From a virus, in the IMG/VR virus record IMGVR_UViG_3300033553_000338, positions 93,881-157,880 of that record: a DNA stretch of 64,000 nucleotides. One strand, given 5' to 3'. Numbering within the stretch: position 1 is the first letter of the stretch; each line of letters starts with the position of its first letter. The notes under the pieces are model-generated. The model was given only the letters and a program-made list of their open reading frames with translations, ran no database searches and was not told where the DNA came from. This document shows, one piece after another, positions 48,093 to 51,037 of this stretch. The position numbers were made by a program, and so were the translations under genes.

Positions 48093-48212
48093 ACCCAACG
48101 GTTTGGCTAAACGCTGGCCGATCATAGACCCATCAAAAAAGAAAGAACGATGAAAAATAAGACAGACATTTCCGAGAATAACGAACGGCTTGCGTTTGAG
48201 CCTGTGTTATAT
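48093..48212 (+). repeat. attC-like site 4
   Basis: CCCAAC-ggttt-GGCTAAACGCTGGCCG / CGGCTTGCGTTTGAGCC-tgt-GTTATAT. Confidence 0.75.
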
Positions 48213-48506
48213 GACCGTTTGCTTTTGGAGGGGGAATCCTTCTGGCAACATCATAACAGGCTCACATTATTTGAAATCCAAGATGCTATTAATGTGATGA
48301 AGATTAGCGGGAGGCTGCCTGACTGTATGTGGGAGGACTTGCAACATATACACGCAACCAATTACGGCACTTTTTACAACCTGACAAAGAGAATGATTGA
48401 TGCCGATTACCCAGGCGTGTTTACGAAGATAAAACCGAATAGAGACTTTCTTCAGTGGATTTACGAAGGCGTTAAGGCAGCAGCAGGAAAAGCAAACGTC
48501 ATATAA
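48150..48506 (+). CDS. hypothetical protein starting inside site 4 and reading into the next cassette
   Basis: ATG in hairpin loop, crosses GTT at 48206, stop in CATATAAC. Confidence 0.7.
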   Translation: MKNKTDISENNERLAFEPVLYDRLLLEGESFWQHHNRLTLFEIQDAINVMKISGRLPDCMWEDLQHIHATNYGTFYNLTKRMIDADYPGVFTKIKPNRDFLQWIYEGVKAAAGKANVI

Positions 48507-48630
48507 CGTTGGTGTATGCACCTGTTGGCTTTTAATTAGAATTACTAAACTTTAAATACCTAATAAGATGAACAAAGAAAACCAAACTACAAATAACAGC
48601 AAGCCAATGGCGTATGATACGTTGTTATAT
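48501..48630 (+). repeat. attC-like site 5
   Basis: ATATAAC-gttg-GTGTATGCACCTGTTGGCTT / AAGCCAATGGCGTATGATAC-gtt-GTTATAT. Confidence 0.75.
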
Positions 48631-48666
48631 ACTGGCACGGATTAAGAACTAAAAACTTTAAAAAAA

Positions 48667-48999
48667 ATGGATTTAAGAATTGAAACAATATTTGCGGAAC
48701 AAATGAAAGGAGATACATCTTTTCAAGAAAAAGAAAGTGGTTTAAGCCTATTATTTGGTGGCACAAGTTACAATAAGCACGAAATGAGAGAAACTTGGGA
48801 TAATGGAATAAAGTACGGAATAGAAATAGGTTTAAATGTAGCAAGTTTAGAAGGGCAAAAAATTGAATTAAACCACAATACACCAGATGGAAAGAATAAA
48901 GAATTTCTTGAAAAGTTTTATAGACTTGCGGAAGAATATAAATGTGCAATACAGTATCATCCGCAAAAAGGAATGGTTGTATTAGACCGAGAATATTAG
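48667..48999 (+). CDS. cassette gene, hypothetical protein
   Basis: Flanked by GTTATATAC / GTATATAAC. Confidence 0.75.
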   Translation: MDLRIETIFAEQMKGDTSFQEKESGLSLLFGGTSYNKHEMRETWDNGIKYGIEIGLNVASLEGQKIELNHNTPDGKNKEFLEKFYRLAEEYKCAIQYHPQKGMVVLDREY

Positions 49000-49006
49000 T
49001 GATTGT

Positions 49007-49059
49007 ATATAACGTTGAGTATAAACGGTCGTTTTAATGCCGTTTATACATTGTTGTGT
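49007..49059 (+). repeat. attC-like site 6 (minimal, ~53 bp)
   Basis: ATATAAC-gttga-GTATAAACGG / CCGTTTATAC-att-GTTGTGT. Confidence 0.8.
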
Positions 49060-49168
49060 GTCTGTGGGCGGTGATTTAGCAGTAAACTTCTTTTGAAATA
49101 CAGAACCAAAAAAGAAAAAAGGGGAGGGGAAAACTTTATAGAGTACCTAATTTAATAAATATAATACA

Positions 49169-49477
49169 ATGAAAGTATTAACAGAAGGTCACAAGTACCA
49201 ATTGAGCGGATTTGAGAACGCTGAAAACACTCAAGAAATTCAATTCATTGAGAAAACGCCAATTGAAGGCACAAGTGAATTGAAAACGGTAAATGATGGA
49301 ACAACTAACGAGGAACTTCTTGAAGTCTTAATTGACCGAATGAATTACCTACAAGGAAAATTCCCTTGCCGTGAAAATGCTCTTGTAATTACCAAACTTC
49401 AAGAATCTTTGATGTGGTTAGAAAAACGAACTTCTGACCGTAAAAAGCGAAATGTAGAAGGTAAGCAACTGGCTTAA
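49169..49477 (+). CDS. tad1: cassette gene, Tad1-family anti-Thoeris/CBASS signal sponge
   Basis: H.Y..IQF..GTTNEELLEVLIDRMNYLQGKFPCRENALVITKLQESLMWLEKRTSDRKKRNVEG resembles the Tad1 C-terminal helical hairpin as I recall it. Confidence 0.85.
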   Translation: MKVLTEGHKYQLSGFENAENTQEIQFIEKTPIEGTSELKTVNDGTTNEELLEVLIDRMNYLQGKFPCRENALVITKLQESLMWLEKRTSDRKKRNVEGKQLA

Positions 49478-49554
49478 AGTTTTGTGAGCGTGGGCTTTTT
49501 CTTTTTCGATTATTAGCAGAAATGTTGATTTGAAAAACGGATTTAGCCCATTGC

Positions 49555-49840
49555 ACACAACGGTCTGGCGGTTTGTTGTCGGTTGCCGTTACAATAAACG
49601 ACTAAGTTGATGCGAATAAATAACTTAACAAATTACGCGCGATGGATAGACCTACAAAAATTACAGTAATTGAAAAGAATGATGGTTATGAAATCATTTG
49701 CATGGATGAAATGTCTGGAAGTTCAATTGGAGTTGATTTGCCTGTTAATGGATATAAAGCATTAGCCGAACATTTTAAAACCGGTGCGATGGAAATTAGT
49801 TCAGACGAGCTGGGCAACTGCAATAAACCGCATGTTAGCC
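49555..49840 (+). repeat. attC-like site 7 with ~220-nt coding loop
   Basis: ACACAAC-ggtctg-GCGGTTTGTTGTCGGTTGCC / GGCAACTGCAATAAACCGC-at-GTTAGCC. Confidence 0.75.
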
Positions 49841-50001
49841 CATCGTTGATCCCAATTGACGAGACGTTTAACAATTGGAGATTTAATTATTCAGAATTTG
49901 GAGCAGTAGATAAAGGTGAAGATTTTAAGAAAGGATTACAAACAGGAACTTGGGCTGGTTATAATTACGCACGTGTAAGGATTAAAAACAATGAGGGCTA
50001 A
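49642..50001 (+). CDS. chimeric hypothetical protein (site-7 loop + 169-bp cassette)
   Basis: First 64 codons lie in site 7; junction CAT|GTT AGC; stop in GGGCTAAC. Confidence 0.7.
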   Translation: MDRPTKITVIEKNDGYEIICMDEMSGSSIGVDLPVNGYKALAEHFKTGAMEISSDELGNCNKPHVSPSLIPIDETFNNWRFNYSEFGAVDKGEDFKKGLQTGTWAGYNYARVRIKNNEG

Positions 50002-50058
50002 CGCTGTGTGTATGGTGTCGGCTGACGATAGGAAGCTGCACTATACACGATGTTACCT
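49996..50058 (+). repeat. attC-like site 8
   Basis: GGCTAAC-gctgt-GTGTATGGTGTCGGCT / AGCTGCACTATACAC-gat-GTTACCT. Confidence 0.8.
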
Positions 50059-50084
50059 ACTGTACGGCTTATTAAAACGAAAAT

Positions 50085-50816
50085 ATGATTAGAAACACGA
50101 TACATAAAGGGGATTGCCTTGAATTGATGCCGAAACTTATTGAAGATAAAAGCATTGATATGATTTTTTGCGATTTACCATACGGAACTACAAAATGTAA
50201 ATGGGATAGTGTAATTGACTTACCTAAATTGTGGAGCGAATACGAGAGAGTAATTAAAGATAATGGCGTTATTCTATTATTTGCACAAAGCCCATTTGAT
50301 AAAGTACTTGGAGCGAGCAACCTAAATCTACTGAAGTATGAATGGATTTGGGAGAAAACTTCTGCCACAGGACATTTGAACGCTAAAAAGATGCCAATGA
50401 AAGCACACGAGAACTTGTTGGTTTTTTATAAGAACCCTCCAATTTATAACCCACAAAAAACAAGTGGGCACGAAAGAAAGGTTAGTAAAGCAGAACATAA
50501 AACCAACTGCAAGGAAAGTGAAGTGTATAATAAAGGGCAGAAGTTGACGACCTATGACAGCACCGAGAGATACCCAAGAAGCGTACAGGTTTTTGCGAGC
50601 GATAAACAGAAGGTAAAACTTCATAGCACACAAAAGCCATTATCTTTAATTGAGTATATGATAAAAACCTATACCAATGAAGGAGATTTGATACTTGACA
50701 ATGCTTGTGGAAGCGGAACTACTGGACTTGGAGCAAAAAATCTTAAACGAGATTATATAATGATGGAGCAAGACCCTGACATTTACGAAATTGCCTGTAA
50801 AAGAGTACTAACGTAG
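50085..50816 (+). CDS. cassette gene, N6-adenine/N4-cytosine DNA methyltransferase (beta class)
   Basis: GDCLELM, CDLPYG, WIWEK, HSTQKP, LDNACGSGTT. Confidence 0.92.
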   Translation: MIRNTIHKGDCLELMPKLIEDKSIDMIFCDLPYGTTKCKWDSVIDLPKLWSEYERVIKDNGVILLFAQSPFDKVLGASNLNLLKYEWIWEKTSATGHLNAKKMPMKAHENLLVFYKNPPIYNPQKTSGHERKVSKAEHKTNCKESEVYNKGQKLTTYDSTERYPRSVQVFASDKQKVKLHSTQKPLSLIEYMIKTYTNEGDLILDNACGSGTTGLGAKNLKRDYIMMEQDPDIYEIACKRVLT

Positions 50817-50822
50817 TATTGC

Positions 50823-51037
50823 AGGTAACGCTAAGTATAACAAACGAAAAATTTACGACTTATGAAAACGCATTTAATTAAAGAAGAGTACAATACAGGT
50901 GAAAGAATTACGCATTTTAAGACAAGATGTGGTAAGATTAGGCACGTAATAACGAACCTACCGAACACCAAAGACAAGGATAAGGTTACTTGCAAGATAT
51001 GTAAGTAAATTTTATGTTTTGTTATACAATGTTGGGT
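50823..51037 (+). repeat. attC-like site 9 with a complete ORF in its loop
   Basis: AGGTAAC-gctaa-GTATAACAAACGAAAAATTTAC / GTAAATTTTATGTTTTGTTATAC-aat-GTTGGGT. Confidence 0.75.
50862..51008 (+). CDS. 48-aa Zn-finger-like peptide inside site 9 (not in ORF track)
   Basis: MKTHLI...TRCG...KDKVTCKICK*. Confidence 0.55.
   Translation: MKTHLIKEEYNTGERITHFKTRCGKIRHVITNLPNTKDKDKVTCKICK

What the first reader, a model, noticed from the sequence alone, without database searches (positions are those of the whole stretch)
48093..51037. Recombination-site loops are protein-coding: they donate start codons, N-terminal halves and a whole gene
Seen: ORF 48150 starts in the loop of site 4 and reads through the GTT (48206) into a 300-bp unit, so its first 19 codons come from the site. 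Site 5 has an ATG at 48568 giving a 25-aa peptide across the junction. In both cases the ATG is exactly 56 nt before the crossover G. Site 7 has a ~220-nt loop, and the site encodes the first 64 codons of ORF 49642, fused in frame to a 169-bp cassette. Site 9 holds a complete 48-aa H/C-CxxC ORF (50862-51008). Known: classical attC sites are mostly non-coding and usually under ~150 bp. Inference: cassette order decides whether a cassette is translated and which N-terminus it receives. That would be a combinatorial domain-fusion or translational on/off mechanism.
Basis: partly seen in the sequence, partly recalled or inferred. Interest (0 to 1): 0.82.

Follow-up and report, generated by a model that had tools for sequence, protein, structure and literature searches.

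The report
Phage recombination hairpins that encode protein N-termini
In a gene-cassette array of a 158-kb phage, the hairpin recombination sites carry start codons, and one of them encodes a folded N-terminal domain that metagenomes show fused in frame, exactly at the site's GTT core, to dozens of unrelated C-terminal modules.

Summary
ORF 48150 and a 25-codon ORF start in the loops of sites 4 and 5, each 56 nt before the core G. ORF 49642 takes 64 codons from site 7 and then reads a 169-bp unit. Site 9 encloses a 48-codon ORF.

It belongs to a family of sites 286-293 nt long. Each carries a conserved 5' leader, an ATG, a beta-beta-beta-alpha domain of about 47 residues, and a linker whose codons form the 3' hairpin arm. 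Twenty-nine representative proteins carry this domain at residues 1-65. Thirty-seven tails were compared, and nearly all are unrelated. The break falls at the in-frame GTT (Val).

The downstream units are open only in that frame. They are framed by perfect 7-10 nt inverted repeats and mostly end at the TAA of the next TAAC box. Hairpin arms co-vary between subfamilies.

Phage attC clusters and short ORFs that cross an integron crossover point are already known. A domain-donating site is not, in the literature I searched.

It is unresolved whether array order sets the fusion, or each site plus downstream unit is one self-contained cassette. I lean to the second. No recombinase is encoded by the phage.

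The parts
48093..48212 (+). Site 4: left box ending in AAC at 48099, 5-nt spacer, imperfect stem, loop holding ATG 48150, 3-nt spacer, right box GTT at 48206
48150..48506 (+). ORF of 118 aa. Codons 1-19 lie in the site 4 loop. The unit after the G has no in-frame ATG before codon 50. The stop lies in the left box of site 5.
48501..48630 (+). Site 5. Same layout as site 4, and its leader peptide resembles that of site 4.
48568..48645 (+). 25-codon leader ORF. It crosses the right-box G at 48624 and stops 6 codons into the next unit, 21 nt before ATG 48667.
   Evidence: compare ORF-11/ORF-18
49007..49059 (+). Site 6, a short classical-size site. Its loop core and its 5/3 spacer layout match the published P12002L_attC1.
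49554..49841 (+). Site 7, the N-terminal donor site. Left box ends at 49561, 5' arm at 49568-49587, conserved 5' leader up to ATG 49642, 3' arm at 49813-49831, GTT at 49834-49836.
49642..50001 (+). Fusion ORF of 119 aa. Residues 1-47 form a folded beta-beta-beta-alpha domain. Residues 48-65 are a low-confidence linker encoded by the 3' hairpin arm. Residues 66-119 come from the 169-bp unit.
49834..50002 (+). 169-bp unit with no start and no stop of its own. It is flanked by an 8-nt perfect inverted repeat and closed by the TAA of the TAAC box of site 8. Stops by frame: 0, 3 and 10.
49995..50058 (+). Site 8, a short site with 5/3 spacers
50823..51037 (+). Site 9. The 20-nt arms (50835-50854 and 51008-51027) enclose the whole ORF 50862-51008 (48 aa, with a C...CxxC pattern).
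51031..51059 (+). 29-bp gene-less unit between site 9 and a weak terminal left box. No clear hairpin follows it.
47655..48047 (+). Cargo: MazG-like pyrophosphatase, in a unit flanked by a 12-nt perfect inverted repeat
49169..49477 (+). Cargo: Acb2/Tad1-hairpin-like ORF. The Pfam score is just under the cut-off. It also matches phrog_2428.
50085..50816 (+). Cargo: N6/N4 DNA methyltransferase, 49% identical to gp35 of Polaribacter phage P12002L, which lies in a published phage attC cluster

Best explanation
The stretch is part of an attC-like hairpin cassette array with no integrase of its own, carried by a complete 158-kb phage. The hairpin sites in this array are also gene-expression parts.

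Site 7 belongs to a widespread family of sites about 290 nt long. Each member carries a conserved 5' leader (a likely promoter and translation-start region; this is inferred), an ATG, a folded domain of about 47 residues, and a flexible linker of about 18 residues. The linker's codons double as the 3' arm of the DNA hairpin. The GTT core is read as valine.

The unit that follows is a pure coding module without its own start or stop. It is bounded by inverted repeats and closed by the TAA of the next TAAC box. Site-specific exchange at the GTT core has repeatedly joined one N-terminal domain to many different small C-terminal modules, many of them zinc-ribbon-like. That the breakpoints and fusions exist is shown. 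That they are translated and functional is inferred.

Sites 4 and 5 carry a shorter version, a 19-codon leader that crosses the core. At site 4 it is in frame with a unit that lacks a start. At site 5 it ends just before the next gene's own ATG, as ORF-11/ORF-18 of attI1 do.

I think it somewhat more likely that the mobile unit is the site plus its downstream module, exchanged at the AA|C box. That would make each fusion gene self-contained, with rarer exchange at G|TT creating new fusions. The recombinase would be host-encoded and is unidentified.
For: Cassette hallmark: the outer bases of each right box are complementary to the next left box over 7-12 nt, for six units in a row. The same holds in 10 of 11 foreign loci, over 7-10 nt.

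Site family: ten members are 286-293 nt long. Homology between the window and L001 runs from the left AAC to GTTA, and both flanks are unrelated.

Hairpin arms: four arm variants differ by compensatory changes. Cognate duplexes score -17 to -20 kcal/mol, against -5 to -9 for cross-subfamily pairs.

Proteins: 29 representatives carry the domain at residues 1-65. Thirty-seven tails were compared, and only one shared family and one duplicate were found.

Reading frame: GTT is in frame in 11 of 11 loci. The tails have no internal stop in frame, against 34 and 72 stops in the other two frames. The stop is the TAA of the TAAC box in 6 of 11.

Structure: AlphaFold2 gives pLDDT of about 90 for residues 1-47 and below 62 for the linker.

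Fusions persist. The QQRELL tail family diverges together with its head. L037 keeps the domain joined to a DUF551 domain after the site has decayed.

For site plus unit as the mobile unit: no ORF crosses a left box. The site 7 leader motif occurs only once in the window. L013/L015 and L010/L024 are 99-100% identical through site and unit and break at the AAC box. IntI1 recombined P12002L_attC2 at the box next to the 3' end of the methyltransferase gene.
Against: The phage genome has no tyrosine recombinase, serine recombinase or Y1 HUH transposase. No integron integrase was found. The candidate in one metagenome-assembled genome is Xer-like.

The sites are not canonical. Spacers are 5 and 3 nt instead of 5-6 on each arm, there are no extrahelical bases in the inner stem, and lengths reach 278 nt.

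The published homologue of site 6 (P12002L_attC1) was the one site of six that IntI1 did not recombine.

By the published rule, extra bases sit on the AAC arm of the top strand. That rule and the HattCI call for P12002L_attC1 both point to the canonical orientation, which contradicts my preferred unit.

The L013/L015 and L010/L024 breaks fall in a palindromic GTTAAC, so they are ambiguous.

Expression and translation of any fusion are untested. The C-terminal module in the window has no homologue.
Confidence: 0.6

Rival explanations
1. The sites are canonical attC sites with crossover at the right G|TT, and a cassette is the unit plus its downstream site. Whichever cassette sits upstream then supplies the promoter, start and N-terminus. 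Reshuffling the array switches translation on or off and creates new domain fusions in real time.
For: Breakpoints fall at the GTT codon and one N-domain has many partners. The left arm carries the extra spacer bases, which by the published rule marks the + strand as the top strand. HattCI called the homologous P12002L_attC1 in this orientation. ORFs are co-oriented with the sites, as in ordinary integrons. The left ends of two arrays begin with TT and have no hairpin. In circular form such a cassette would carry the whole gene across the junction.
Against: The window's array is heterogeneous. The 169-bp unit would own site 8, which has no start or N-domain, so its circular form would be an orphan fragment. 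Site 7 would then belong to the unrelated Tad1-like cassette. No ORF crosses a left box. The decayed sites lie at the left end and a hairpin-less end lies at the right, the reverse of a canonical array that grows at its left. The one crossover shown by experiment in a related phage array is at the other box. No activity has been shown.
Confidence: 0.25
2. There is no site-specific recombination. The hairpins are RNA or transcription elements (terminator plus promoter, like the PeSL modules of T4-type phages). The conserved N-domain gene is then an ordinary small phage gene whose 3' end is reshuffled by homologous or illegitimate recombination.
For: A conserved leader precedes the ATG and also occurs before an unrelated ORF. 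Covariation cannot tell a DNA hairpin from an RNA hairpin. No recombinase was found. L012 differs from L010 by an exchange inside the N-domain gene.
Against: Breakpoints fall on the AAC and GTT cores in independent loci. Every unit is framed by a perfect inverted repeat that contains those cores, and PeSL-type exchange does not predict this. The sites within the window's array share no sequence that homologous exchange could use. Related phage sites were recombined by IntI1.
Confidence: 0.1
3. This applies to sites 4 and 5 only. The 19-codon loop ORFs are leader ORFs for translational coupling, or chance ORFs. The protein from unit 48207-48506 really starts at an in-frame TTG (48219 or 48225).
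For: The two homologues are 96 and 101 aa long, lack the leader and begin a few residues before the conserved core. The site 5 leader ends after 6 codons in the next unit, as ORF-18 does. No second partner of the site 4 leader was found.
Against: Both leaders start 56 nt before the G, in the same frame, and give similar peptides. The unit has no ATG before codon 50. The fusions at site 7 show that the principle works in this kind of array.
Confidence: 0.35

Closest known systems
Integron attC sites and clusters of attC sites lacking an integrase (CALINs) in virulent phages (Qi et al. 2023, PMC9892861), including Polaribacter phage P12002L
   Same: Imperfect hairpins bounded by AAC and GTT cores separate single genes. 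The outer core bases are complementary across each gene. The cargo includes DNA methyltransferases. Window site 6 shares its loop core and spacer layout with P12002L_attC1, and the methyltransferases are 49% identical.
   Different: Spacers are 5 and 3 nt, and there are no extrahelical bases in the inner stem. Sites reach 207-278 nt, against the published range of 57-141 nt. Loops hold starts, a protein domain or a whole gene. The core is read in frame. The homologous published site was not recombined by IntI1.
ORF-11 / ORF-18 of attI1 and short ORFs inside attC sites (review PMC8876359)
   Same: A short ORF with its own start lies in the recombination site and crosses the crossover point. Its stop, or its continuation, comes from the next cassette. 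It helps cassettes that lack translation signals, and N-terminal fusions occur.
   Different: Those ORFs are 11-18 codons long, sit in attI and act mainly by translational coupling. Here an attC-like site donates a folded domain plus linker to at least 29 different in-frame modules that have neither a start nor a stop of their own.
PeSL promoter/stem-loop modules of T4-type phages (PMC2839356, PMC4122927)
   Same: Regulatory stem-loop units flank small accessory genes in variable regions of large lytic phages and are linked to modular gene shuffling.
   Different: PeSLs are near-identical repeats exchanged by homology and lie outside coding sequence. The sites here differ from each other, break at the AAC and GTT cores, and are partly coding.
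Shufflons and Gin/Cin/Min invertible segments (from general knowledge; not tested here)
   Same: A site-specific recombination site lies inside a gene, between a constant N-terminal part and alternative C-terminal parts.
   Different: Those systems use a linked invertase and alternative segments that sit side by side in one locus. Here there is no invertase and only one module per site, with the alternatives spread across phage genomes.

Membership tests
Integron attC site | Inverse core ending in AAC and core starting with GTT at the two ends | tested here: met
   Sites 3-9 in the window. Ten foreign members of the site 7 family.
Integron attC site | Cassette signature: the outer core bases are complementary across the cassette, not within the site | tested here: met
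   Perfect repeats of 7-12 nt across six units and 7-10 nt in 10 of 11 foreign loci. Within-site pairing is often only 3 bp.
Integron attC site | Imperfect inner palindrome that folds as a single-strand hairpin | tested here: met
   Folds. Covarying arms in the site 7 family.
Integron attC site | Unpaired central spacer of 5-6 nt on each arm, and two or three extrahelical bases near the inner box (PMC5027507) | tested here: not met
   The spacers are 5 nt on the left and 3 nt on the right in sites 1, 2, 4, 5, 6, 8 and 9. Site 7 has 6 and 2, and site 3 is fully paired. There are no consistent bulges in the inner stem.
Integron attC site | Length of 57-141 bp | tested here: not met
   By AAC-to-GTT span, site 7 (278 nt), site 9 (207 nt) and site 3 (144 nt) exceed the range and site 6 (45 nt) falls just short. 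The other sites lie within it.
Integron attC site | Recombined by an integron integrase on the bottom strand | not testable with these tools
   Published data only. The site 6 homologue P12002L_attC1 failed with IntI1, while the neighbouring attC2 worked.
Integron attC site | Detected by the IntegronFinder or HattCI/Infernal attC models | not tested
   These models are not available here. HattCI did call the homologous P12002L_attC1.
CALIN (attC cluster without integrase) | At least two attC sites close together, with no integron integrase nearby | tested here: met
   Nine sites lie within 4.3 kb. There is no PF00589 match in the whole 157,880-bp genome. Membership depends on accepting these sites as attC.
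ORF-11/ORF-18-type leader | A short ORF starts in the site and crosses the crossover point, with its stop supplied by the next cassette close to that cassette's start | tested here: met
   Site 5: ORF 48568-48645 stops 21 nt before ATG 48667. Whether it is translated is not testable here.
PeSL | Near-identical promoter plus stem-loop repeats flanking the variable genes | tested here: not met
   The window's sites are not similar to each other. The site 7 leader motif occurs once.

The most novel reading that the evidence does not exclude
Phages, probably of Flavobacteriia, run an integron-like system that builds proteins rather than only stocking genes. Hairpin sites carry the promoter, the start and a scaffold N-terminal domain. 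Small effector modules with no start or stop are swapped behind them at an in-frame GTT codon. The recombinase is not a classical integron integrase and can use both the AAC and the GTT core.
Probability: 0.35. Interest if true: 0.9.

Novelty: new variant of a known kind. Interest (0 to 1): 0.78.

Why it matters
Integron cassettes are thought of as whole promoterless genes, and attC sites as non-coding structure. Here the structure-specific site is itself coding. The core triplet is a codon, one hairpin arm is a protein linker, and the exchanged unit is a protein module framed by the site's own GTT and TAA.

That would be a natural system for shuffling domains by site-specific recombination in phages, acting on small proteins of the kind used against host defences. 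It also offers a concrete set of sites for asking how attC-type sites become attached to new cargo, an open question in integron biology. It further shows that attC finders tuned to short, non-coding sites will miss this class.

Tried and rejected
- Close relatives of the phage backbone in IMG/VR: only distant matches (28-37% identity) or none. Array polymorphism could therefore not be read.
- Homologues of the window's C-terminal module: none.
- Homologues of ORF 48150 in viral contigs: none.
- The N-domain in species-representative bacterial genomes: none.
- Foldseek search of the N-domain model against the PDB: nothing below E = 0.1. Pfam and PHROGs give nothing for ORFs 48150 and 49642.
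- Recombinase search in the phage genome (tyrosine, serine, Y1 HUH): nothing. A candidate in a metagenome-assembled genome that carries a related contig is Xer-like and lacks the integron-specific insert.
- A simple pattern scan for AAC-spacer-stem...stem-spacer-GTT across the genome was too noisy to use.
- I first read L013/L015 as proof that the unit travels with its upstream site. I withdrew this as proof because the box there is a palindromic GTTAAC that holds both cores.
- The count of structure pairs was not used. The MAFFT columns of the arm subfamilies are offset by one, so I compared duplex energies instead.
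Full report
**Setting.** The window is bases 93,881-157,880 of a complete 157,880-bp phage genome with direct terminal repeats. Nearly all genes lie on the + strand. The 46-52 kb stretch has lower G+C (0.36-0.37) than the rest. 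The genome gives no match to tyrosine recombinases, serine recombinases or Y1 HUH transposases. The nearest isolated phages for the methyltransferase infect Tenacibaculum, Cellulophaga and Polaribacter. Site 6 has look-alikes in Polaribacter, Nonlabens and Tenacibaculum phages. The host is therefore probably a member of the Flavobacteriia; this is inferred.

**The observation.** Between 46.8 and 51.1 kb, nine imperfect hairpins start with a box ending in AAC and end with a box starting with GTT (cores mutated in sites 1 and 2).
- ORF 48150 starts in the loop of site 4, and the core G at 48206 is the last base of its codon 19.
- A 25-codon ORF starts at 48568 in site 5 and crosses the G at 48624. 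In both sites the ATG lies 56 nt before the G, in the same frame relative to the box, and the two 19-residue leaders resemble each other.
- In site 7 (278 nt from AAC to GTT), ORF 49642 runs for 64 codons, reads the GTT as codon 65, and continues through a 169-bp unit to the TAA in the left box of site 8.
- Site 9 (207 nt) encloses a 48-codon ORF.

**Are these real recombination sites?** Three lines of evidence say yes.
- Cassette signature. The outer bases of each right box do not pair with the left box of the same site. They pair with the left box of the next site, as perfect repeats of 12, 10, 9, 8, 8 and 7 nt for six units in a row. This is what exchange inside the core leaves behind, and it cannot be chance.
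- Shared geometry. Most sites have a 5-nt spacer after the AAC and a 3-nt spacer before the GTT.
- A published relative. Site 6 shares its loop core and this geometry with P12002L_attC1, a site published from a virulent Polaribacter phage. In that phage, a methyltransferase 49% identical to the window's sits between hairpin sites and is framed by a 9-nt inverted repeat.

Clusters of attC sites without an integrase are thus already known in virulent phages (PMC9892861). The array as such is a new member of a known kind. It is not canonical, however. The spacers are 5 and 3 nt rather than 5-6 on each arm, and there are no extrahelical bases in the inner stem. By AAC-to-GTT span, three sites exceed the published 57-141 bp range. 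P12002L_attC1 was also the one site of six that IntI1 failed to recombine.

A search with ORF 49642 returned 15 other protein clusters that match only the first 49-91% of the query, at up to 95% identity. In the alignment, the first 65 residues are conserved and everything after the valine is unrelated. An exhaustive search with the 65-residue part found 29 representatives among 1.84 billion proteins. All carry the domain at their N-terminus and are 63-141 aa long.

At the DNA level, the window and L001 are alike from the left AAC to GTTA and unrelated on both sides. Their upstream ORFs are also unrelated. Ten members of this site family are 286-293 nt long.

**Frame and boundaries of the downstream units.** In all 11 loci examined, the GTT is in frame. 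The downstream unit has no internal stop in that frame, against 34 and 72 stops in the other two frames. The unit is framed by a perfect 7-10 nt inverted repeat in 10 of 11 loci. In 6 of 11 the stop codon is the TAA of the next TAAC box. The units are therefore coding modules without their own start or stop, locked in frame to both cores.

Many tails look like zinc ribbons, and one is a DUF551 domain. Of 37 tails compared, only one family recurs (it begins QQRELL). Its divergence tracks that of its head, so that fusion is old and has been kept. L037 keeps the domain joined to DUF551 although the core is now GCT and the left arm is gone, which makes it a fossilised fusion. L012 and a few short proteins show the domain with only a short tail.

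**The hairpin is under selection.** In the window, the 5' arm at 49568-49587 pairs with the 3' arm at 49813-49831, about 230 nt away. The 3' arm consists of the last codons of the linker. Four subfamilies have different arm sequences that remain complementary. One differs by a single compensating pair and two are entirely different. Cognate duplexes score -17 to -20 kcal/mol, against -5 to -9 for cross-subfamily pairs.

AlphaFold2 folds residues 5-47 as three strands and a helix with pLDDT of about 90. Residues 48-66, encoded by the arm, score below 62. That pattern fits a linker whose sequence is set by the DNA structure. No structural or family match gives a function.

A second loop variant (L013-L015) keeps both arms and the last 13 codons but encodes a different N-terminal part. 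The loop interior is therefore modular as well. The leader before the ATG is conserved, and in L019 it also precedes an unrelated ORF. It occurs once in the window, so site 7 looks like an import.

**Sites 4 and 5.** ORF 48150 has two homologues, from other phages. They lie in tightly packed genes without such sites. They align from about residue 20 onward and have short N-termini of their own. The window's unit has no in-frame ATG before codon 50, so the loop ATG is the obvious start, although an in-frame TTG at 48219 or 48225 cannot be excluded.

The site 5 leader stops six codons into the next unit, 21 nt before that gene's ATG. This is the arrangement described for ORF-11 and ORF-18 of attI1, which cross the crossover point, take their stop from the first cassette, and promote translation of the next gene (PMC8876359). 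This part of the finding is a variant of something known.

**Which unit moves?** The cassette signature is symmetric.

For the canonical reading:
- The extra spacer bases lie on the AAC arm, which marks a top strand by the published rule.
- HattCI called P12002L_attC1 in that orientation.
- Two arrays begin on the left with TT and no hairpin.

For the opposite reading:
- ORFs cross right boxes but never a left box.
- A site plus its unit is a complete expression unit, from leader to TAA.
- In the window's mixed array, the 169-bp unit would otherwise own site 8, which has no start.
- The decayed sites are at the left end and a hairpin-less end is at the right.
- L013/L015 are 100% identical and L010/L024 about 99% identical through site and unit, and both pairs break at the AAC box.
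- In P12002L, the crossover shown by experiment (attC2 with IntI1) lies at the box next to the 3' end of the methyltransferase gene, on the ORF-sense strand.

The two contig pairs are weakened because their box is a palindromic GTTAAC. Published work shows that sites lacking extrahelical bases are recombined on both strands at similar rates. Both cores may therefore be used. I lean to the self-contained unit, with rarer G|TT events creating new fusions, but this is not settled.

**Verdict.** A structure-specific recombination site donates a folded N-terminal domain, and the core codon is the seam to interchangeable C-terminal modules. The claim that array order sets expression in real time remains unproven. 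The recombinase, expression of the fusions and the function of the domain are all unknown.

Noticed in passing
window 57583-58584 (- strand): A plasmid-type Rep_3 initiator (both winged-helix domains match Pfam). It is the only long minus-strand gene in the window.
   Followed up: no
window 36845-40078: A 1077-aa ribonucleotide-reductase-like ORF. Its matches in other phages come in separate pieces, and in one Rhizobium phage they are interrupted by a homing endonuclease. It may carry an insertion.
   Followed up: no
genome outside the window, about 24.8-23.9 kb upstream of window base 1 (G000:C1, about 69.1-69.9 kb): A cluster of AAC...GTT-bounded inverted repeats, found with several spacer settings in the crude scan. 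It could be a second hairpin array.
   Followed up: no
L010/L012/L023/L024, first site of that array (for example L010 about 560-790): A site with 5/3 spacers whose loop holds a whole 52-codon membrane-like ORF. The stop of that ORF is the TAA inside the right box.
   Followed up: partly
L019 885-922; window 51031-51059: Tiny gene-less units of 29-38 bp. They are hairpins with GTT...AAC stems and a T-rich loop (TTTTAAT core). The same loop core recurs in window site 6 and twice in phage P12002L.
   Followed up: partly
L037 716-1114: The N-domain fused to a DUF551 domain, with the core changed to GCT and no left arm. The fusion has outlived its site.
   Followed up: partly
L001 4595-5731: A TnpB/OrfB_IS605 gene lies about 300 bp downstream of a site 7-type fusion gene in a phage-like contig.
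   Followed up: no
P0028 and P0031 (L033 1501-1851): Two fusion proteins have different hairpin arms and different module interiors but share the same 10-nt boxes. Both modules therefore start with the same five residues and end with the same three.
   Followed up: partly
search hit H41, LR745206.1 590398-590451: A look-alike of site 6 (81% identity over 53 nt) in a 635-kb uncultured phage record.
   Followed up: no
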